A program made the position numbers and the translations under genes. A DNA stretch of 64,000 nt from the NCBI GenBank assembly GCA_965153355.1, contig OZ231126.1:49166001-49230000 (forward strand). Reading direction: 5' to 3'. The notes beneath the pieces were generated by a model. The model did no database searches, was not told the origin of the DNA, and saw nothing but the letters and a program-made list of their open reading frames with translations. The stretch is from Flaccisagitta enflata. Its lineage: Eukaryota. The first letter of the stretch is position 1. Each line of letters begins with the position of its first letter. This document shows, piece by piece, positions 14,594 through 59,844 of the stretch.

Positions 14594-14786
<193 letters not shown>

Positions 14787-16370
14787 CATTCAAACAGATT
14801 TTTGTCGAGACTGGGAAAGGAAAATTCCGTCCAACGAAGAATCACCGGTTATTCAATGCACGCATGAATTGCAAAAAGAGCGACAGATGGACTGACACGT
14901 GATCTGATGGCTAGCGAAATCGTTGCGGCGCGCACTGTGCTCCAGACCGCATTGTTCCTTGAATAGTTTTTATACAGTGAAACCTCGCCATAACGGATAC
15001 AAGAGAAAGAAATGAAACAAGGCTGGATACATGGCTACCTCAGTCGCGTGCGGGTGGGCAGGGGCCATATTTGAGGTCACTTGATCACTTGGGCAGGAGC
15101 AGTGAGGCCAAAGAAAGCAAAAACCCAAAAAAGTATAGTGTGATCGACCGATGAACAGACGCTAGACGGACCGATGAACTGCCAGACGCACAAAGCAGGC
15201 TGTAGAGTCGTGCATTACGCGACTAACAAAAATCCATCTGTGATGGACACAAGTCTTTGGTTCCTTCATGCCATTTTCATATATTTCCTTCATTGGCAAT
15301 AATGGAAATCCATCAATAACAAATAAAATCTATTGGTCCCTTGACATCTGTTATTTCGGGGTGTAACTGTATGATAGGAGGAACAATATTCCTCACTAAA
15401 CCCAAACTAAAATAAATGGAAGAGGGCCTTGTGAATCCTCACTGATTAGTTAAAAAGCGTTTTCAACAAAACAGAATCTAAAAAGCTGTCTTTCTTATTA
15501 ACCCAAAAGCAAACCGCTTACCAAAAGTAGTTAAGGGCACTGATTGTTACCTGTTTTACCAAAACTCAACAAATCACCCGAGGGCAACATTCTCAAGAAA
15601 CCATACCCTCAGGCGTGCATTATTTTCTTTCCTTCCGAGTTCCGAGTAACTTATATTTTCCCCTGGGATTTTTCGACTTGCCAATCCCGTCTAACTTCAA
15701 GTTTACCAACCCAGAGTTTTATGGAGATGAATTTGTTTCATCATCAATTATCTAATTTGCATAATGCAGTTTTAAGACTTCTGGTTTTTGAAATGACAAC
15801 CATTCAAACTTTACTCGATTGGAATAAAATCCAAATACTAACACGCTGCTTAAACTAAATAAACAGATAAAATTGACGCTTTCCATGTGCAAAAAGATCA
15901 TACTGGTTTCATTTGTTGTGAAGTTTTGTAAAAATGGATGCATGCAAAGCATTTGATGAATAATTTTTGAAATCCATCTTACCGGAAAAAAAAGCTTGCT
16001 TTAGTCGTTGGAATCTGTCCATGGACTTCTGCTCATTGCGAACTGATAACCTGGCGCTCGAGAGTTGAACACTGATGCCCCAATCATCTAAATGACTTTT
16101 TCCTTTATCCTCTTTTTTTTGTTCTTCTATTTCCTCTTTTTTTTCTTTTTCTTCTTCTTCTTCTTCGTCGAATCGTCTTCTTCTTCTTGCTATTCTTCTT
16201 CTTCCCCTTTTTCTTTTTCTTTGGTCAATTGGCAAACTTTAGAATCTAAATTCATTCAAATTATTTTCCACCATTCTTAGGCAGGAAGGGCATTTAATGG
16301 AAAATTTTCAGTCGCGGATTTACTGTTATAGAGAGATTTATGCATCTCTTTTGCAAAGACTTTAGATATA

Positions 16371-18350: not shown

Positions 18351-18551
18351 AACAAACAGTATATTGTGTCAATAGATGATATTACATTAGTAGTAAAGAA
18401 CTCTCACGGTAATTTGAAGGAGCGTACACGAGAATGTTGACATCGAAAACATAGCCAGGTCCCCATTTGCCCGTGAGGTGAGCTTCACGGACGTAAGACA
18501 TTTTCCGACTAGGATTTTTAGTATTTCTTTATTCTTTTCTGCTTCCTTTTT

Positions 18552-18647
<96 letters not shown>

Positions 18648-19050
18648 CTTCTTCTTCTCCTTCTTCTTTTTCTTCTTCTTCTTCTTCTTCTTCTTCTTCT
18701 TCTTCTTCTTCTTCTTCTTCTTCTTCTTCTTCTTCTTCTTCTCCTTTTTTTTCTTTTTTTGGTTTCACCTTGGCTTTATTTTGCTTTTAATTCCCTTTTG
18801 TCAAATTTGGGAATTTCACAAATTTCTTTGTTTATGAGACTTTGGCCTTAAAACCAACGATTTTTTTTTGTTTCGTTTTTGTTCTGTTTACGTTGTGCAC
18901 TGGACTGAGTTGCCAACTTTAAAATGTAAACATTTTTTTCTCCTTTGCAGCGGCCTAGCAAAATCTGAAAAAAAACCCGACGACTCAGAGTTTCTCTCCC
19001 TGTTATGCTTCTAAAGAGAGCTATTCTTGGGAAATTGTAAATCAAGAATC

Positions 19051-34020: not shown

Positions 34021-34039
34021 CTGACATGAGGGAGAGAGA

Positions 34040-34139
<100 letters not shown>

Positions 34140-34256: not shown

Positions 34257-34311
<55 letters not shown>

Positions 34312-34512
34312 AATCAACAAAAAAGACTCAGAAGAAATCGCCGAATCTTAAAACACATATCACTTCAATCTCGCTACGTTTTATGCAAAAAGGATAACTT
34401 AACATACATTACACTACAAGTCTACGATCATATCAACACTTCATCCTATACAAAAGGATTTACAACTAGTTACACAGTTACTAAAGTTCTCAGTTCAATC
34501 TACATTGAAAAA

Positions 34513-35395
34513 ATGCCTCCACTAATTAATGCTCTCAGGAACGGCCCAGTTAACCGGCTGGACCACCTGACACACATCTGTGAAGCCCTAAGTATAGATA
34601 TCACAGAAATCACTGAAACAAAAAAGAAACTTGAAAGAAAAGATTTGCACAAAGCCATAGATGACTTCATCACAGTAAACCCAGATCGTGAATCAGAAGT
34701 CCGTGCTATGATCGAAAAAATAAATGGTGATTGGAAAAAGCAAAAGACGGATACGTCTCAAAACACAGACTCATCCACAGCAAGTTCTACACCATCTTCC
34801 TCACTTTCACCATCTGCAGCTCCATTTGAACCACCTCCACCCCCCACCCAACATCCATCACAAACACAACAAACTGAAACAGATCCAATATCACAACAAA
34901 CATGTTTTAACCAAGCTGTATTCACGTTCACTGCTCCATTTCCAAAAGACACCTCCGTCCATATGGACTGTAATGCAGATCCATTTGAGAATGACCAAAA
35001 ACGAAAATTAGCATACGATGAAATGGAAGATGAAAACGAATCTGCTGAGAAACGATCCCGTTTTGAATACTCACCCGCAGATATCAGTGACTTGATCAGA
35101 GACAACAAATTTCTTCGTAAAGCATACCTGAGTGAGAAACAAGCACGAATCAAGGCTGAAAGAGATTGTGACTCCATCCAGCTCACTTGCCAACGGGAAA
35201 TGCGAATTTTTAGTGAAACAATCAAGCGCGAATTACGTGAACAAATCCAACAAGAAATGTCACACGGAATGCAGAAATTGAGCCTCGAGATATCACAGAT
35301 TAAGGACTCCAACATCAACAACGACAACAATAACAACAACAAACAAGAACAACAACAACAAAAACAAAAACAACAAAAACAAAAACAAGAACAAG

Positions 35396-35433
<38 letters not shown>

Positions 35434-35504
35434 AAACAACAAAAACAACAACAACAAAAACCACAAACAACAACAACAATAACACAAACAAAAGCAACAA
35501 AAAC

Positions 35505-35603
<99 letters not shown>

Positions 35604-36405
35604 ACCAAAACATAGACACCCTCCACGTTCAGGTCGCGTTTTATTTATCCATGATTCAAATGGTGCCGATATTGACCCTCCACGGCTAAAACCCGGCCGT
35701 CGTGTAACACGTGCAAAACGCTCAACAATACTAAAAGCAACAGAACACATTCCAAAAATCGAAAAACCTGAACAAGTAGACGACATCATGTTCATGGTCG
35801 GATTAAATGACCTCCGTGATGGACTTTCACCAGTTGAAGTTGAAGAAAAAGCGCATGATATGCTTCTACTCTACCAGGAACAATTCCAAAATGCTCGTTT
35901 CCACCTCGTGGGTATCCCCCCAACTGACGTGGTAAAACACAAAGAGACAAATAAAGCCTTCCAAGAACTAACACAGTCTACAGGGTGCAACTTTGTTTCT
36001 ACTAAAGTTTTCTTGGACAAGACCACCAAGAAAATTAGATCAAATACCATGAGAGACCAAGTTCATTACAACGAATGGGGTGTACGCATCATTGCAAAAG
36101 GTATGAAAAAAAGCCTTTTCTCTGATGCGAACATCGGAAATAGCAAACTTGCAAACCTAAATCGCCTCAAGAAACAAGTTGGGTTGGTTGAAAAAACCCA
36201 ACCCACTGAACCACCCGTCGAACTTACAAAGGTTGAGCCCAGTGTACCATCAGCCAACCCTCATGAAGTAACAAAGACCGTTGAAATTGATCTGACGGCA
36301 GAATGTTCTGATTTAGTTGAAATGAGTAACAATGAAGTGAATCAAAATAAGGACAAGACACCTGTTGATGGCTACAATTCTGCTCTACTAGCGCAATTGT
36401 GCTAG
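34513..36405 (+). CDS. LINE ORF1: helical N-terminus, coiled coil, poly-Q/poly-N, SGNH/GDSL-like esterase domain
   Basis: 630 aa; SGNH-like blocks VLFIHDSNG, DIMFMVGLND and RDQVHYN. Esterase ORF1 domains are known from CR1/L2/RTEX-type elements. Confidence 0.88.
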
Positions 36406-36711
36406 ATCGCGGATGAAAACGCCCACAGTCTCTCAATCGACAATGACTCAAGTGGTATAAACGAAATTGATGACTTTGATGAAATTAAGGAAATAAACGA
36501 AATAGTTGAAATTGATGAAATCATTGACGAAATTGATTATATTGGTGAAATAAATGATATCAATGAAATCAATGATATAAACGATATTGATGAAATTATT
36601 GAAAATGATGGAATCAATGAAATAAATGAGATCAACCCCATTCCGAGTATCCCAAAAAACACAATTTCCCAAAACAAACAAGGAAAACGTGCACTTGGGA
36701 AATGGGATCTC

Positions 36712-39700
36712 ATGTATGCTAATGTCAGAGGTATAAAGAGCAAGATGCTAAGCCTAAAAGCACTCCTCAATGAACAAGCCCCACACGTTTTCCTTCTCAC
36801 TGAAACCCAGCTCCGCGCAGATACTGGCATAAACATACCAGACTATACCTTCTTTGGGAAAAAGAGAGAAGGAAAAAAAGTTGGTGGGGGTGTAGGCATC
36901 CTCGTTAGAAGTGATGTTCGCCATTATACATCAGTCCATTATTCAGAACGAAATCTTGAAATTATATGGATCAGTCTCAGACGAAAAGGTGCCTGTCCCT
37001 TACTAATTGGCACCTACTATGGTAAGCAGGAGAGCCTTAGTAAGCAAGAGATCGAAAAGGAGATGTCTTTACTAAGAGAAGAGATAGCTGAAAGAGAAAA
37101 AGATGGAGAGATATTACTGACCATGGATGGTAATGGAAAGATTGGTATTTTAGGGGAAGATGTCAGCCGAAACGGCGGAGAACTTTTGAAAATGATTGAA
37201 AGTTCCAGTTTACATATTCTCAATAAAAGTAGTAAATGTGAAGGGAAAATAACTCGAAAAAACACAAAAGATGAAAATGAAGTATCAGCCATAGATTTTA
37301 TACTAGCAAGTGATAATGCCGAAAAATGGGTTTCTAATGTCAAAATTGATGAAGAAGGACTCTTCAAGATCTCTGGAAAAAATGACTCCGACCATAACAC
37401 CATATCCATAACCGTACATGTACCATTGATTGAGAGGATACAGATCCCAAAATCCTCTGTATGGAACATCAGAGCCTCTAACGAGAAATGGGGCCAATTC
37501 ACTGAGAAGCTCATTCAACATACACCTAAAGCAACCGAAATTATAACAGACAGCAGCATTCCATTTGACACACGTTACAAGAACTATATAAAATTACTTG
37601 ACTCACTGCTAAGACAGACCATTGGCCGCACAACAATAAAGAACAGTAAAAAGGAAATAGTATCAGATGCAACACGTGACCTACAACAACGGAAGAAAAC
37701 CTTAAAACAGGAAATACAACAAGAAAAAAATAGAGAAAAAAGACTTGAACTCATTAGCGATTACAAAGGATTACAAGAAGAAATTATACAAAATATGAAT
37801 GAAGAAAAAGCGCAGATGATAAAAGAGAAACTCGATAGAATAATCAAAGACCGAAGTAAGAAACTTTACTGGGATGAAAAAAGAAAAATGAGCCGAAATC
37901 CTGCGCTGGAATCCTTAGTCATTAAAAATGAAAAAGGAGAAAGGCAATACAATCCCGAGGATTATAAAGAAACAAATGCAAGATACTTTGAAAGTCTTTA
38001 TAAAAGAAAAAACTACATACCTCATCCTTACCACCAAGAGGTAGAATCAAAAATTTCAAATTACACCAATGACTTGTCATTCGATGACTTAGATTACAAT
38101 CAGACACCGACGAAAAGAGAGATCAAGGAGATTATAGAGAGAAAACAGAATAACAAATCGACCCCAGACTTTCCTAATGAGATTCTCAAAAGACCAGGTG
38201 ACGCAATGGTTGACTTCTTGTACCCATTGATTAAGACTGTCTTCGATGAATTGGTCGTTGCACAGGTTTGGAACAAAGGCAGAATAACGGCACTTTTTAA
38301 GGGGAAGGGTGACAAAGAGGATCTCAACAATTACCGAGGCATCACAACTTCATCAGCCATTGGCACCATTGTTGAAACCCTTATTGATGACCGGATAGAA
38401 AAGTTGGTACCATTTAGCCAAGCCCAAGGAGGAGGCAAGAAAGGAGCCTCACCGTGTGACCATCTCTTCCTCATCCGTTCCATCATTGACATTAGTAGGG
38501 CACAAAAACGTATGACCTTCCTCACATTTTACGATGTATCAAAGGCATACGACAATGTCGATAATAATGACCTACTAGTGACCATGTGGGAAAATGGTCT
38601 AAAAGGCAAAGCCTGGAGAATTCTCCAAGAATTAAACTCCAATCTAAAAGCCGAGATCAAGACAAGGTTTGGACTGACAAGAGAAGTAGAAATGGAAATT
38701 GGAGGCAAGCAAGGGTCACGTCTTACTGGACGCATGTTTGCAAAACTAATGGATTTAATGTTAGATGAATTAACAGAAAAGGGTTTTCAAATAACAGAAG
38801 AACTTTTCATAGCTGTTTTACTATGGGTTGATGACGTAGTCTCATGCGCTGAAGGCGTAGAAGCCCAGAGAGAGATCATGGAAACAATAAATCAATTTGC
38901 AATTAAACATAAAATCAAATGGGGTCGGAAAAAATGCAAAGTCATGCGTGTTGGTAAACATACAAAAGACGAATATAAATGGACCATAGGTGATATGGAA
39001 ATAGACGAGACTGACCACTACAAATACCTGGGCGATGTAGTGAGTAGTAATGGGAGAAATAAAGAAAACATAAAATCGCGACAAGCTAAACTTCAAACCT
39101 CAATTATAAGTGTCAATACTTATGCCAGCAACGAAGTTATGACAAAAATTGAGGCAGCAGTGCTACTCGATCTCTATGAGACAATCGCAATTTCTGGTTT
39201 CATGACTAATGCAGAATCATGGTCTCTTAACAAAGGCGAAGAAAGCGAAATTGAGAAAATAGAGATTCAAGCGCTAAAAAATCTATTTGATCTTCCAATC
39301 CATACTCCTACAGCCGCCGTCATTTTCACCCTTGGCGTGCCCTTTACAAAACAACGTATTGACAAACGAATTCTCTTATTCCTTTACAAAATTTTACACA
39401 AAGACAGTGACGCTTGGATGAAAGAGTTCCTTAACACGCTCGAAGTACTTGATATTGGATGGTGCAAGAAGGTCAAAGAGATTCTCATAGAATATGATCT
39501 ACCACACGACTTTGATGAGATTAAAGACCACAGCCTCCCACAATGGACAAACAGGATCAACACAGCTTTTGAGAAGAAACACAGAGAACGACTGCTTGAA
39601 ATGTGCTACAATAATGAAAATGGAGAACGTACTATCAAAACAAAAACAATGACCATGATTGACAAACTAAACAACGAAAATTACAAAAGACAACCTAGTC

Positions 39701-40017
39701 AAGAGATAATTAAAATGACCAAGCTGGAAGCGAAGACAATTATCACGGCCAGATATGGTATGTTAGAATGCGGAAAAAACCATAAAGGCACATTAAGTCT
39801 GAAGTGTGTAACTTGCGACGTCGAAGACAACGAGGACCACAGACTCAATGATTGTCCAAGATGGCAACAGAGAAATATCAAATGCTCTTATGGACAAGAA
39901 CGAGTCAATTTCGATCAAATATATTCCAATGACATTAGCACCCTGCGAAAAATAATACCTGCCATACAAAATCTATGGAATGTTAAAAGTGCCCATGGCA
40001 CAATGTATAAAGATTAA
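36712..40017 (+). CDS. LINE ORF2: APE endonuclease + reverse transcriptase + C-terminal CCHC finger
   Basis: 1101 aa uninterrupted. APE motifs YANVRG, LTET, GGGVGILV, MDGN, SAIDFIL, SDHN. RT motifs KGKGD..NYRGIT, FYDVSKAYD, KQGS, LLWVDD, KCKVM, YKYLG. C-terminal CVTC-x7-HRLNDC. Confidence 0.97.
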   Translation: MYANVRGIKSKMLSLKALLNEQAPHVFLLTETQLRADTGINIPDYTFFGKKREGKKVGGGVGILVRSDVRHYTSVHYSERNLEIIWISLRRKGACPLLIGTYYGKQESLSKQEIEKEMSLLREEIAEREKDGEILLTMDGNGKIGILGEDVSRNGGELLKMIESSSLHILNKSSKCEGKITRKNTKDENEVSAIDFILASDNAEKWVSNVKIDEEGLFKISGKNDSDHNTISITVHVPLIERIQIPKSSVWNIRASNEKWGQFTEKLIQHTPKATEIITDSSIPFDTRYKNYIKLLDSLLRQTIGRTTIKNSKKEIVSDATRDLQQRKKTLKQEIQQEKNREKRLELISDYKGLQEEIIQNMNEEKAQMIKEKLDRIIKDRSKKLYWDEKRKMSRNPALESLVIKNEKGERQYNPEDYKETNARYFESLYKRKNYIPHPYHQEVESKISNYTNDLSFDDLDYNQTPTKREIKEIIERKQNNKSTPDFPNEILKRPGDAMVDFLYPLIKTVFDELVVAQVWNKGRITALFKGKGDKEDLNNYRGITTSSAIGTIVETLIDDRIEKLVPFSQAQGGGKKGASPCDHLFLIRSIIDISRAQKRMTFLTFYDVSKAYDNVDNNDLLVTMWENGLKGKAWRILQELNSNLKAEIKTRFGLTREVEMEIGGKQGSRLTGRMFAKLMDLMLDELTEKGFQITEELFIAVLLWVDDVVSCAEGVEAQREIMETINQFAIKHKIKWGRKKCKVMRVGKHTKDEYKWTIGDMEIDETDHYKYLGDVVSSNGRNKENIKSRQAKLQTSIISVNTYASNEVMTKIEAAVLLDLYETIAISGFMTNAESWSLNKGEESEIEKIEIQALKNLFDLPIHTPTAAVIFTLGVPFTKQRIDKRILLFLYKILHKDSDAWMKEFLNTLEVLDIGWCKKVKEILIEYDLPHDFDEIKDHSLPQWTNRINTAFEKKHRERLLEMCYNNENGERTIKTKTMTMIDKLNNENYKRQPSQEIIKMTKLEAKTIITARYGMLECGKNHKGTLSLKCVTCDVEDNEDHRLNDCPRWQQRNIKCSYGQERVNFDQIYSNDISTLRKIIPAIQNLWNVKSAHGTMYKD

Positions 40018-40064
40018 CACCCTTGATTTACTATTTTACTATGAAATAATCTGTTACATTTACC

Positions 40065-40316
40065 TTTCTTGTTAACTTGCCTATGGTAATTTTGAACTTT
40101 ATACAAGTCACATTTTGTCGTTTAAGAGAACCCTTATGTACGAATCACCTAAACAGTGATGACGACGCATAGACTTGTAAAAATATTCCTTTCTTTCTTG
40201 TTAACTTGCCTATGGTAATTATGATTGTTATACAAGTCACATTTTGTCGTTTAAGAGAACCCTTATGTACGAATCACCTAAACAGTGATGACGGCGCATG
40301 GGCTTGTAGAAATATT
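40065..40316 (+). repeat. Two-copy 129-bp tandem duplication in the LINE 3' UTR
   Basis: tttcttgttaacttgcctatggtaat...gaacccttatgtacgaatcacctaaacagtgatgacg occurs at 40065 and 40194. Confidence 0.9.
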
Positions 40317-40481
40317 TATTTTTGTGCTGAACTTATTTATTCTGTACCGTTATTTAAAATTCTTTCTTCTTGTACGCATGTACGCTCATAACAATTTTAC
40401 ATTGTTAATGTGATAAATGCACATTTGATGAGCATTACAAATCAATCAAAAAAAAAAATCTCTCTCTGTTTTCATTCTCAC

Positions 40482-43012: not shown

Positions 43013-43635
43013 CCGCGCTGGCCAAGGAGATGCGGAGGCGGATGAAGAGGAGGAGGAGGCGGAGGAAGAGGATGAGATGGTGGCGAATGAGGAGGTGGAA
43101 GTGGTCACTACCAGGCGGGAGGTCAGATTCACTTATGGGTGAAGCTCATTGGCTATTTTTTCTAATGTCATATCGGTGAAATGATCGATGTTTATGTCCT
43201 CGTTAGACAAGACAAAAATAAAGGGAAAAAAATCTTTAAAAAAAAAAAATAAAGAAAAAAAAATAAAGAAAAAAAAATAAAGAAAACACACCCGCGCTCA
43301 AATTCTCTATCCGATCATGCTTAGGTGGTTGAATTATCAGTTAAATCTAATTTTACATCAAAACCTATCAATTGAATCGCAGTGCGGAAACATTACCACC
43401 TACTCCCTCTTTGTCTGTTTGTTTCGACAATTATTCTAAAGACTATAGAAAGAAACCGGACCCCTTCTCATTAAAACGAGGATGGTAAACGTTATCTAAT
43501 CTTGCCTAATGCATATTTTTGACCCATAAGAAAATCCGACCTTTTTCCTCGATTTTCATCTTATTGGTTGTTATTTATCAAAAGAATTTGCAAGAATTGT
43601 AGTTGTCGTCGCTGTTGTTTGTGTTCATGAAATGC

Positions 43636-43688
<53 letters not shown>

Positions 43689-43690
43689 AT

Positions 43691-43867
<177 letters not shown>

Positions 43868-44224
43868 TGATTCAATTATTCCTGTTGCTGTTATGATTGC
43901 AATTGTTACGAATGTCGTTGAGCAATTTGAATTTGAAATTGATTAAATTTTGGTGACGGTTACGAGGGTACTACAATTTTGGCGAAAAACTATTTCTTTT
44001 TTTTTTTCTCAAAAAAATGGAAGAACAGTCGTTGCGAGACAAATTTCAGATGGCAAGGTTTTTAAAATCAAGCATGGAAAATGTTTCCTACTAATAGTTT
44101 GATAACGCGTGGAAAATTTTTCCTACGAGCGTTTTAATGAGTTTGGCGAGAGTTCAAACATAAAGCAAGTGTTTCTGCATCATCATCACATAGCATGTAT
44201 TCGGCATATTAGAGGAGCCATAAG

Positions 44225-59292: not shown

Positions 59293-59486
59293 TTATTGAG
59301 CGAATGTTTTCGGTTTCTTTGGTTTGGAGGGTCCGTCTTGCGCGGCCGGCTTCCAGTTAGGGTCGAAGTGCTTCTTCAAAGGCGCCCAACAGCGATGATA
59401 CTCGGGGTCCACTTTGTCACAAGTCACTTCTCCCCAACGCGTCAACGCCAGACCGAGAGATGTCTCAAACATGAAGGACTGAGTGC
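59293..59486 (-). CDS. HGD: HGD terminal exon
   Basis: accag|(G)TQSFMFETSLGLALTRWGEVTCDKVDPEYHRCWAPLKKHFDPNWKPAAQDGPSKPKKPKTFAQ*; FMFE and YxxCWxxLKxHF motifs. Confidence 0.95.
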
Positions 59487-59585
59487 CTGGTAAATCACAA
59501 GATTGAAAAGAAATGCTTGTCTCTCTCTCTGTGAATCTGCCTCTGTTATATTTCTTATTTCTGTAAGTCTGCCTCTGTGTCTGTT

Positions 59586-59663
<78 letters not shown>

Positions 59664-59671
59664 CTACATAC

Positions 59672-59844
59672 CAACGGCTATTTTCTGTGGTTTCAGTTCC
59701 ATCTTGGAGTTGGCCTCGAAGCACTGCGCGTCCGGTCCATGAGGCGTCATCATGGAATGAAGCGAAGCTCCGCCCGGCAAAAATCCTTCCTCTTTAGCCT
59801 CGTAATTCCCTTTGATCAATCCCATGAATTCCGACATGCAATTT
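59672..59844 (-). CDS. HGD: HGD exon
   Basis: ttcag|(R)[64 protein letters not shown]; iron-ligand motifs HRNCMSE and PHGPD are intact. Confidence 0.96.

What the first reader, a model, noticed from the sequence alone, without database searches (positions are those of the whole stretch)
36403..36714. LINE ORF1 and ORF2 are in one frame, separated by a single TAG: candidate stop-codon readthrough polyprotein
Seen: ORF1 ends TGC TAG (36403-36405). The same frame stays open for 102 codons with no ATG and runs directly into ORF2 (36712-36406 = 306 nt). The residues that should form the first APE beta-strand (KWDL-MYANVRG) begin upstream of the first Met. Known: most two-ORF LINEs use overlapping frames or a short spacer with re-initiation, whereas gag-TAG-pol readthrough is the gammaretrovirus strategy. 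Inference: leaky TAG decoding (or non-AUG re-initiation) could yield a ~1834-aa esterase-APE-RT fusion at sub-stoichiometric level.
Basis: partly seen in the sequence, partly recalled or inferred. Interest (0 to 1): 0.8.

Follow-up and report, generated by a model that had tools for sequence, protein, structure and literature searches.

The report
LINE with conserved in-frame ORF1/ORF2 stop
An intact jumping gene (LINE) has its two genes in one reading frame split by a single stop codon, a layout kept across its whole family, so its enzyme is probably made by ribosomes passing or restarting at that stop.

Summary
ORF1 (34513-36405, esterase type) ends in TAG. The same frame then runs 102 sense codons without ATG into ORF2 (ATG 36712, stop 40017).

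It is not a private nonsense mutation. In 4 of 4 assessable relatives from metagenome contigs (39-41% ORF2 identity to the window, on four branches of the family tree), ORF1 and ORF2 are also in one frame with exactly one stop (TAG, TAG, TGA, TGA). Their spacers are open, unalignable and 34-47 codons long. No fused form appears among 120 listed ORF2 relatives or 150 listed ORF1 relatives.

The spacer looks translated. The first endonuclease strand (KWDLMYAN) starts 4 residues before the first Met. One relative has no ATG until 70 residues past the catalytic Asn.

The mechanism is open. Readthrough explains the frame, the single non-TAA stop and the missing AUG, but I found no leaky context and no 3' structure. 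Two relatives have ATG directly after the stop, which fits termination-coupled restart. My odds are readthrough 0.40 and AUG-independent restart 0.35.

Other copies in the host genome and the RNA could not be resolved.

The parts
34311..40458 (+). Full-length non-LTR retrotransposon (LINE). The boundaries are inferred.
   Evidence: (TC)24 lies at 34262-34310 just upstream. An A11 run at 40448-40458 is followed by TCTCTCTC. No second copy is in the window.
34513..36405 (+). ORF1, 630 aa, ending in TAG
   Evidence: The frame has no internal stop.
35310..35603 (+). (CAA)n tract that encodes the poly-Q/poly-N stretch of ORF1
   Evidence: tandem repeats; translation.
35632..36132 (+). SGNH/GDSL-type esterase domain of ORF1
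   Evidence: Pfam Lipase_GDSL_2 scores E 0.0021, below the curated cut-off. A profile of 4 family members matches SGNH hydrolases in the PDB at E 3e-6. The motifs DSN, G-x-N-D and H-Y are visible in alignment A4. The profile has 968 relatives at E<=0.001 in the representative library.
36370..36402 (+). Last 11 codons of ORF1 (GYNSALLAQLC), a short hydrophobic-periodic tail directly before the stop
   Evidence: A comparable helix-like pattern lies in the last 32 aa of 17 of 33 long ORF1 relatives. It occurs in 0 of 33 control windows placed 40 aa upstream.
36403..36405 (+). The single in-frame TAG between ORF1 and ORF2
   Evidence: Equivalent single stops occur in L004 (TAG), L005 (TAG), L006 (TGA) and L008 (TGA).
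36406..36711 (+). Spacer of 102 sense codons with no in-frame ATG. It holds 13 out-of-frame ATGs, is acidic and low in complexity, and ends in a basic patch.
36463..36635 (+). Degenerate tandem array inside the spacer, period 9/18/27 nt (whole codons)
36700..36723 (+). First beta-strand of the endonuclease (KWDLMYAN). It begins 12 nt upstream of the first ATG.
   Evidence: AlphaFold2 model, strand at residues 21-28, block pLDDT 98. Trp at -4 is kept in 24 of 41 relatives that extend that far.
36712..36714 (+). First ATG of the ORF2 frame. It is residue -1 of the Y-x-N catalytic motif.
   Evidence: This position is M, L, F, V or I in relatives that start further upstream.
36700..37425 (+). Apurinic-like endonuclease (APE) domain
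   Evidence: Pfam Exo_endo_phos, E 1e-6. Foldseek matches LINE-1 EN 1vyb and TRAS1 EN 1wdu at probability 1.00.
38314..39033 (+). Reverse transcriptase domain
   Evidence: Pfam RVT_1, E 1.5e-15, residues 637-876 of the 1203-aa frame.
39805..39855 (+). C-x2-C ... H-x4-C motif near the ORF2 C-terminus
   Evidence: C1032, C1035, H1043 and C1048 are invariant in alignment A1 of 36 sequences.
40015..40017 (+). ORF2 stop, TAA
40064..40316 (+). 3' UTR tandem duplication, 2 x 129 nt, 93% alike

Best explanation
Shown: this is an intact esterase-type LINE. Its layout ORF1 - one stop - open spacer - ORF2, all in one frame, is the conserved design of its family and not damage to this copy.

Strongly inferred: the spacer is translated. 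It is a fast-evolving linker that supplies a basic patch and the first half of the first endonuclease strand. A working ORF2 protein therefore cannot begin at ATG 36712 and must be decoded from upstream without an AUG.

Inferred mechanism, my first choice by a small margin: a small fraction of the ribosomes that translate ORF1 decode the TAG as a sense codon and carry on. This gives a rare ORF1-linker-endonuclease-RT fusion of about 1834 aa beside abundant ORF1 protein. It is the same stoichiometry trick as gag-UAG-pol, and it would tether the enzyme to the ORF1 particle on its own RNA. Low, unstimulated readthrough would be enough, because a LINE needs very little ORF2 protein.
For: (1) In 5 of 5 family members whose junction can be read, ORF1 and ORF2 share a frame and are split by exactly one stop. 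These are the window plus L004, L005, L006 and L008, at 39-56% pairwise ORF2 identity. They sit on four separate branches of the family tree.

(2) The spacers are 34-99 codons long and unalignable, yet always open. P(open) by dinucleotide shuffling is <0.0002, 0.019, 0.096, 0.011 and 0.147, while the other frames hold stops.

(3) No AUG is available where one is needed. The window has none in 102 codons. L005 has none until codon 117, which is 70 residues past the catalytic Asn.

(4) Strand 1 of the endonuclease starts 4 residues before the window's first Met. Trp at -4 is kept in 24 of 41 relatives. Position -1 is M19/L15/F5/V2/I1 in the 42 relatives that start upstream, so it is not a universal start. 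BLAST similarity to the sister protein P0001 runs about 14 window residues into the spacer upstream of the Trp.

(5) Scanning from the TAG to ATG 36712 would meet 13 out-of-frame ATGs.

(6) The junction stop is TAG x3 and TGA x2, never TAA. The ORF2 stops of the same elements are TAA x3 and TAG x2.

(7) The stop is not a private mutation. No fused form appears among 120 listed ORF2 relatives (longest 1216 aa) or the 150 best ORF1 esterase relatives (longest 863 aa).
Against: - No readthrough signal was found. The base after the stop is A, G, G, A, T, and no shared CAR-YYA or CUAG-type context is present.
- The 128 nt 3' of the stop fold no better than shuffles: z = +0.82, -1.23, -0.22, +0.32, +0.11. 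The program does not predict pseudoknots.
- L006 has ATG as the first codon after the stop and L008 as the second codon. That is unlikely by chance and typical of stop-start restart. On the tree I read the two as lying in one basal part of the family, so this may be a single event.
- The shared frame may be inertia. Human and rat L1 also have in-frame ORFs with 63 and 60 nt spacers, yet these hold two in-frame stops and are thought to use termination/reinitiation (passages of PMC2241872; PMC5972666).
- Every two-ORF LINE studied so far makes ORF2 protein separately (review passages).
- There are only 5 junctions, and no protein or ribosome data. The RNA run gave 2 poor reads.
Confidence: 0.4

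Rival explanations
1. Termination-coupled restart that does not need an AUG. Ribosomes finish ORF1 at the TAG and release ORF1 protein. Some 40S subunits stay on the RNA and restart at or within a few codons of the stop: at AUG where one is present, otherwise at a non-AUG codon such as the ATC that directly follows the TAG here. The products are a separate ORF1 protein and an ORF2 protein of about 1203 aa that carries the spacer as its N-terminal extension. The shared frame is then a relic of an ancestral 'stop-ATG' junction.
For: - L006 reads TGA ATG and L008 reads TGA TGT ATG. L004 has ATG at codon 11.
- Stop-start coupling is the mechanism reported for the LINEs SART1 and L1 (passages of PMC5972666; PMC3708506).
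- That L1 ORF2 can start without its AUG is recalled from Alisch et al. 2006. That paper is not held here.
- In-frame ORFs coexist with restart in human and rat L1.
- An open spacer from the stop onward is equally required by this model.
- The outgroup L051 has an in-frame TAA, the least leaky stop, and no ATG until after its catalytic Asn.
- A peptide-dependent form of coupling is in print (abstract of PMC3923131). ORF1 proteins of this family often end in a helix-like motif right before the stop (17 of 33 against 0 of 33).
Against: - The window and L005 have no AUG at all where restart is needed.
- No UGGGA-type TURBS motif 1 lies in the 120 nt upstream of the stop in any of the 6 elements scanned, and the only hexamers shared by 4 of the 5 family members are GAAATG and AATGAA.
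- No downstream structure of the SART1 kind is predicted.
- The model does not explain why the frame never changed across the family, or why TAA is absent at the junction (0 of 5).
Confidence: 0.35
2. ORF2 starts at ATG 36712 by internal entry or shunting, and the spacer is an untranslated inter-ORF region that happens to be open. The endonuclease works with a shortened first strand.
For: - 57 of the 120 listed ORF2 relatives were called from exactly this Met.
- Met is fixed at this position in the large crown group that holds the window.
- Much of the window's spacer is a codon-period tandem array, which can stay open without selection.
Against: - In the model the strand begins 4 residues upstream of the Met.
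- Trp at -4 and a basic patch are encoded upstream of the Met in the window and kept in relatives.
- The position is L, F, V or I in 23 of 42 relatives that start upstream, and F, F and I in L004, L005 and L008.
- Spacers are open in all 5 elements.
- 13 out-of-frame ATGs precede the Met.
Confidence: 0.12
3. A private nonsense mutation in a single-ORF element, or a dead copy with no biology at the junction.
For: Only one copy is in the window. Other copies in the host genome could not be read at the TAG.
Against: - 4 of 4 assessable relatives have a stop at the same junction.
- No fused form is found.
- Both ORFs are intact over 1833 sense codons.
- Diverged copies in the same organism differ from ORF2 mostly at third codon positions, in 34 of the 38 listed sites. 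This shows purifying selection.
Confidence: 0.03
4. The host reads TAG (or TGA) as an amino acid, so this is a plain single ORF. Alternatively a 2A-type skip or a small intron removes the stop.
For: In each of the five elements the junction stop differs from the ORF2 stop: TAG/TAA three times and TGA/TAG twice.
Against: - Each element has exactly one in-frame stop in about 1200-1830 codons. A reassigned codon would be scattered through the ORFs.
- TAG ends ORF2 at the homologous C-terminus in L006 and L008.
- No NPGP motif occurs in any of the five.
- L008 has no in-frame GT..AG pair spanning its stop within 150 nt. RNA data to test splicing are lacking.
Confidence: 0.03

Closest known systems
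Mammalian LINE-1 (human, rat): unconventional termination/reinitiation of ORF2
   Same: It is a bicistronic LINE RNA. ORF1 and ORF2 are in one frame (63 and 60 nt spacers). ORF2 is made rarely and depends on what happens at the end of ORF1 (passages).
   Different: The L1 spacer is short, non-coding and holds two in-frame stops, so readthrough is impossible there. L1 ORF2 has its own AUG before the endonuclease. Here there is one stop, a 34-99 codon open spacer, and no AUG before essential residues. The ORF1 type also differs: RRM/coiled-coil in L1 against esterase here.
SART1 (silkworm LINE): UAAUG stop-start coupling
   Same: Translation of ORF2 is coupled to termination of ORF1. L006 (TGA ATG) and L008 (TGA TGT ATG) resemble it.
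   Different: In SART1 the codons overlap, so the frames differ, and a downstream RNA structure is needed (passages). Here stop and start do not overlap, the frames are the same, no structure is predicted, and the window has no AUG.
Gammaretrovirus gag-UAG-pol readthrough
   Same: One in-frame UAG lies between the structural and the enzymatic reading frames. The downstream frame lacks its own start. The outcome would be a rare fusion.
   Different: The retroviral case (recalled) depends on a pseudoknot 3' of UAG-G and on a protease that cuts the fusion. No structure is predicted here, and LINEs encode no protease. The element is a non-LTR retrotransposon, not a virus.
Esterase-type ORF1 LINEs of the CR1/L2 group (e.g. 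zebrafish ZfL2-1)
   Same: ORF1 has a C-terminal SGNH esterase, and ORF2 has APE and RT domains (passages of PMC3905857, PMC4120745 and PMC13343379).
   Different: The passages I read do not describe how ORF1 and ORF2 are joined in those elements.
Single-ORF non-LTR elements with 2A (StopGo) sequences
   Same: One reading frame is made to give two products (PMC3708506).
   Different: No NPGP motif is present in any of the five elements, and a real stop codon is present.

Membership tests
APE-type non-LTR retrotransposon (LINE) | N-terminal apurinic-like endonuclease fold in ORF2 | tested here: met
   Pfam Exo_endo_phos, E 1e-6. AlphaFold2 model with pLDDT 92. Foldseek matches 1vyb, 1wdu and 7n8k at probability 1.00.
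APE-type non-LTR retrotransposon (LINE) | Reverse transcriptase domain downstream of the endonuclease | tested here: met
   Pfam RVT_1, E 1.5e-15, 57.9 bits against a cut-off of 29.6.
APE-type non-LTR retrotransposon (LINE) | No LTRs, an A-rich or simple-repeat 3' end, and target-site duplication | tested here: inconclusive
   An A11 tail lies at 40448-40458 and (TC)n lies on both sides. A true duplication cannot be told apart from insertion into a microsatellite.
CR1/L2-group LINE with esterase-type ORF1 | SGNH/GDSL esterase domain at the C-terminal part of ORF1 | tested here: met
   Pfam is below its cut-off (19 bits against 32.9). The family profile hits SGNH hydrolases in the PDB at E 3e-6. 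Ser (DSN), G-x-N-D and His blocks are aligned.
CR1/L2-group LINE with esterase-type ORF1 | RT phylogeny places the element inside CR1 or L2 | not testable with these tools
   No named reference LINE sequences were available. All relatives found are unnamed metagenome proteins.
Programmed stop-codon readthrough | A single in-frame stop conserved among relatives, with coding sequence continuing in the same frame and no start codon needed | tested here: met
   Met in 5 of 5 junctions. Spacer openness is given, and the AUG-less L005 and window.
Programmed stop-codon readthrough | Leaky stop context or a stimulatory 3' RNA structure | tested here: not met
   The +4 bases are A, G, G, A, T with no shared motif. 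Fold z-scores are +0.82 to -1.23. Pseudoknots were not testable.
Programmed stop-codon readthrough | A fusion protein exists | not testable with these tools
   This needs immunoblot, mass spectrometry or ribosome profiling.
Termination-reinitiation (stop-start coupling) | Restart AUG overlapping or within a few nucleotides of the upstream stop | tested here: inconclusive
   Met in L006 and L008 and marginal in L004 (codon 11). Not met in the window or in L005.
Termination-reinitiation (stop-start coupling) | A cis element that holds the 40S subunit: TURBS motif 1 upstream, or a downstream structure as in SART1 | tested here: not met
   No UGGGA lies in the 120 nt upstream in 6 elements, and no structure lies downstream. 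The motif itself is recalled and comes from no call.
2A / StopGo | NPGP at the junction | tested here: not met
   absent in all five elements.

The most novel reading that the evidence does not exclude
A whole family of marine LINEs makes its endonuclease/reverse transcriptase only as a rare readthrough fusion with ORF1, as retroviruses make Gag-Pol. The short helix that ends ORF1 directly before the stop may sit in the ribosome tunnel and tune how often termination fails. This would be, as far as my searches show, the first non-LTR retrotransposon found to use stop-codon readthrough.
Probability: 0.35. Interest if true: 0.8.

Novelty: new variant of a known kind. Interest (0 to 1): 0.6.

Why it matters
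How the second ORF of a bicistronic LINE RNA gets translated is still described as unclear in the papers I read. The studied cases (L1, SART1) have junctions that rule out readthrough.

This family has a junction kept over deep divergence that allows both readthrough and restart, and it includes members whose ORF2 has no usable AUG. A few reporter constructs could therefore separate the two mechanisms: tandem stops, a one-base shift after the stop, or a stop placed in the spacer.

If readthrough holds, LINEs and retroviruses reached the same way of setting the ratio of structural protein to enzyme. An ORF1-ORF2 fusion would also give a simple physical basis for cis-preference.

Tried and rejected
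**Data sources that gave nothing**
- The window has no second copy of the element; the self-BLAST found only simple repeats.
- No RNA holder is listed among the sequencing runs.
- The polyA RNA run X8 was sampled at about 6 in 100 and gave 2 reads, both under 90% alike and both inside ORF2. This says nothing on expression or splicing.
- The read-laying table listed 40 differences and left 245 more unshown. None of the 40 listed falls in 36403-36405, so the state of the TAG in other copies is unknown.
- A contig in X1 joins 36177 to 36350, skipping 172 nt. The tool marks it 'between: not known', so it may be a replaced stretch and I did not interpret it.
- The scan of viral contigs found no relative.
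- The scan of genome contigs with ORF2 found only distant LINEs. With the esterase profile it found none.
- The word-based search with ORF1 found 1 relative.
- phmmer of the endonuclease against PDB sequences found nothing. The fold search did.

**Ideas tested and dropped**
- My recollection that Candida Zorro3 has an in-frame single stop was wrong. The passages describe an inter-ORF region and a needed first ATG.
- I suspected that the N-terminal extension of P0001 was homologous to the window's ORF1 tail, which would have meant a sense codon at the junction. The similarity is not significant, E 6.8.
- L004 and L005 share only short nucleotide strings around the stop (ATAGGAT, TGGACAAC), which their shared coding explains.
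- There is no TURBS motif and no informative shared hexamer around the stop. There is no 2A motif.
- A variant genetic code was rejected, because each element has only one in-frame stop.

**Literature**
- Searches for a LINE with ORF1-stop-ORF2 readthrough returned no such report.
- The library lacks most subscription journals. Alisch 2006 and Kojima 2005 are not held.
- Repbase entries were not searchable.
- So 'not found' is weak evidence that the idea is not in print.
Full report
**1. The observation**

The sequence reads ...CAA TTG TGC TAG ATC GCG... with TAG at 36403-36405. ORF1 starts at ATG 34513 and has 630 codons. The next ATG-initiated ORF on the + strand starts at 36712 and ends at 40017, and both starts are in the same frame.

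**2. What the element is**

- ORF2 carries Exo_endo_phos and RVT_1 domains.
- ORF1 has a weak GDSL_2 match. A profile of four family members matches SGNH hydrolases of known structure at E 3e-6, and the Ser, G-x-N-D and His blocks align.
- In the papers I read, esterase-type ORF1 is reported for CR1 and L2 lineages (passages of PMC13343379).
- The element runs from about 34311 to 40458. It lies between (TC)n tracts, has an A11 tail and a duplicated 129-nt unit in its 3' UTR.
- No second copy lies in the window.
- No genome is held.

**3. Is the spacer coding?**

- An AlphaFold2 model of window:36640-37500 (41-row alignment, pLDDT 92) puts the first strand at K-W-D-L-M-Y-A-N. Half of it therefore lies upstream of the first Met.
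- The model matches the LINE-1 and TRAS1 endonucleases.
- Of the 120 listed ORF2 relatives, 57 were called from exactly this Met, 42 start further upstream and 21 start downstream of the catalytic Asn.
- In the 42 that start upstream, the Met position is M19/L15/F5/V2/I1. The residue at -4 is Trp in 24 of the 41 that reach it. The window encodes that Trp, and a basic patch before it, upstream of its first ATG.
- Similarity to the sister protein P0001 extends about 14 window residues further into the spacer.
- The spacer has 0 stops in frame, 6 and 22 stops in the other frames, and 13 out-of-frame ATGs.
- Caveat: 36463-36635 is a degenerate 9/18/27-nt tandem array. Openness of the window's spacer alone is therefore weaker evidence than the shuffle P value suggests.

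**4. The comparative test**

A protein search with the junction read through (X at the TAG) found 149 relatives, of which 120 are listed. All come from assemblies of unnamed samples, are 1035-1216 aa long, and match the endonuclease side only.

A scan of metagenome contigs with an ORF2 alignment returned 49 loci.
- Eight are family members (39-60% identity).
- Four of these (L001, L002, L003, L007) begin inside ORF2 and cannot be assessed.
- In all four others the upstream ORF and ORF2 share a frame and are separated by exactly one stop:

| Locus | Stop | Position |
|---|---|---|
| L004 | TAG | 2003 |
| L005 | TAG | 581 |
| L006 | TGA | 2821 |
| L008 | TGA | 212 |

- The upstream ORF holds the esterase in L004, L005 and L006.
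- In L008 only 70 codons are on the contig. Their end resembles the C-terminus of the 829-aa esterase relative P0142.
- The spacers are 34-47 codons up to the conserved Trp and are unalignable with one another except L004/L005. All are open, with P 0.019, 0.096, 0.011 and 0.147 by shuffling.
- Pairwise ORF2 identity among the five elements is 39-56%.
- In a FastTree of the five, 60 of the 120 listed relatives (every second one) and an outgroup, they fall on four separate branches. The window sits in the large crown group.
- Among five distant LINEs whose junction I looked at (L018, L025, L031, L050, L051; the other distant loci were not examined), one has an in-frame single stop (L051, TAA). 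Four have overlapping or differently framed ORFs.

**5. Not a private nonsense mutation**

- No fused form appears.
- A full HMMER search with the esterase profile gave 968 relatives at E<=0.001. The best 150 are at most 863 aa long.
- In the 127 of those 150 that reach the end of the domain, ORF1 stops 0-188 aa later, median 49.

**6. Copies in the host and RNA**

- In a DNA run of the same organism, a 660-nt contig is identical to 36145-36804.
- Other copies with 10-15% differences exist. Of the 38 listed differences in ORF2, 34 are at third codon positions, so several lineages are under purifying selection.
- Between 36212 and 36339 only the identical contig aligns. The ORF1 tail and the spacer therefore diverge much faster than the domains.
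- No listed difference falls on the TAG, but 245 rows were not shown, so this point stays open.
- RNA gave nothing usable.

**7. Which mechanism?**

For readthrough:
- One assumption, a slightly leaky stop, explains the shared frame, the single stop, the open spacer and the missing AUG. The window has none in 102 codons, and L005 has none until codon 117, which is 70 residues past the catalytic Asn.
- It also fits the absence of TAA at the junction (0 of 5), although ORF2 ends in TAA in 3 of 5.

Against readthrough:
- The +4 bases are A, G, G, A, T, and no known context is shared.
- No 3' structure is predicted, with z from +0.82 to -1.23.
- L006 and L008 carry ATG at codon 1 and 2 after the stop. 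I read them as lying in one basal part of the tree, so this may be one event.

On restart:
- Termination-coupled restart has precedent in LINEs (SART1, L1).
- Human and rat L1 also have in-frame ORFs, with two stops in a short non-coding spacer. Frame alone is therefore not diagnostic.
- Restart needs AUG-independent initiation exactly at the stop in the window and in L005.
- No TURBS-like motif is present.

On initiation at ATG 36712:
- It fits the fixed Met of the crown group.
- It does not fit the fold, the conserved Trp, or the relatives that have L, F or I at that position.

I put readthrough at 0.40, restart at 0.35, initiation at ATG 36712 at 0.12, and the remainder on the other readings.

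**8. Other readings rejected**

- A reassigned stop codon is rejected. Each element has exactly one in-frame stop, and TAG ends ORF2 in L006 and L008.
- 2A is rejected because there is no NPGP.
- A conserved intron over the stop is unlikely. L008 has no in-frame GT..AG pair there. This was not tested with RNA.

**9. A further feature**

ORF1 proteins of the family tend to end in a short hydrophobic-periodic motif 1-21 residues before the stop. It is found in 17 of 33 long relatives and in 0 of 33 control windows. Examples are ...FLKMALQCLGNNA and ...FLNMAMACLNNI, and ...ALLAQLC in the window. It follows a linker of very variable length. It may simply be a functional end of ORF1 protein. Its constant nearness to the stop, together with one published case of peptide-dependent coupling (abstract of PMC3923131), makes a role at termination worth testing.

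**10. Literature and novelty**

- Five full-text searches found no report of readthrough between the ORFs of a LINE.
- The reviews I read list restart, 2A and frameshift-like options.
- The library misses most subscription journals and Repbase, so the arrangement may have been noted elsewhere.
- I rate this a new variant of a known kind: a LINE family with a conserved, readthrough-compatible junction and AUG-less ORF2.

**Verdict**

Noticed in passing
window 34028-34135, 34262-34310 and 40459-40468; L006:1-50: The element sits between (GA)54, (TC)24 and a downstream TCTCTCTC. The contig of relative L006 also begins with a (TC)n-like run. The family may insert into TC/GA microsatellites, or the flanks may be a target duplication.
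   Followed up: no
ORF1 C-termini: window 36370-36402; proteins P0122, P0133, P0137, P0152, P0159, P0184, P0185 and others: A short helix-like hydrophobic motif lies directly before the ORF1 stop in 17 of 33 long ORF1 relatives and in 0 of 33 control windows. It follows a linker of 24-120 aa.
   Followed up: partly
L051:139-5724 (contig filed under a Bacteroidetes genome bin): This is a distant LINE whose ORF1 is Cys/His-rich; I read it as zinc-knuckle (gag-like), but Pfam found no family. It shows the same layout: ORF1, one in-frame TAA at 1897-1899, then ORF2 with no ATG until codon 39, which is past its catalytic Asn. It is eukaryotic DNA inside a bacterial bin.
   Followed up: partly
L018:1262-1273: A distant LINE with an ATGA-type overlap of the ORF1 stop and the ORF2 start, the classic stop-start arrangement.
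   Followed up: no
window 34513-34680 and the N-termini of ORF1 relatives (alignment A5): ORF1 proteins share an N-terminal motif M..L...L...P.K....L..IC..L.L...GT...LR..I. From memory it resembles a SAP-type DNA-binding motif. Pfam gave only a weak HTH_26 hit.
   Followed up: no
window 35310-35603; also 14594-14796, 18547-18765 and 43597-43868: The (CAA)n tract that encodes poly-Q/poly-N inside ORF1 has look-alike arrays elsewhere in the window. They look like simple repeats rather than element copies.
   Followed up: no
window 59293-59793, minus strand: An open frame matches the C-terminal domain of homogentisate 1,2-dioxygenase (Pfam HgmA_C, E 1.6e-7). It is probably an exon of a host gene.
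   Followed up: no
window 36177-36350 (run X1): A more abundant contig type (depth 198 against 88) joins 36177 to 36350, skipping 172 nt of the ORF1 tail. The tool cannot say whether other letters replace them. If it is a clean deletion, it would change the ORF1 frame of that subfamily relative to the TAG.
   Followed up: no
window 40064-40316: The 3' UTR holds two tandem copies of a 129-nt unit, 93% alike.
   Followed up: no
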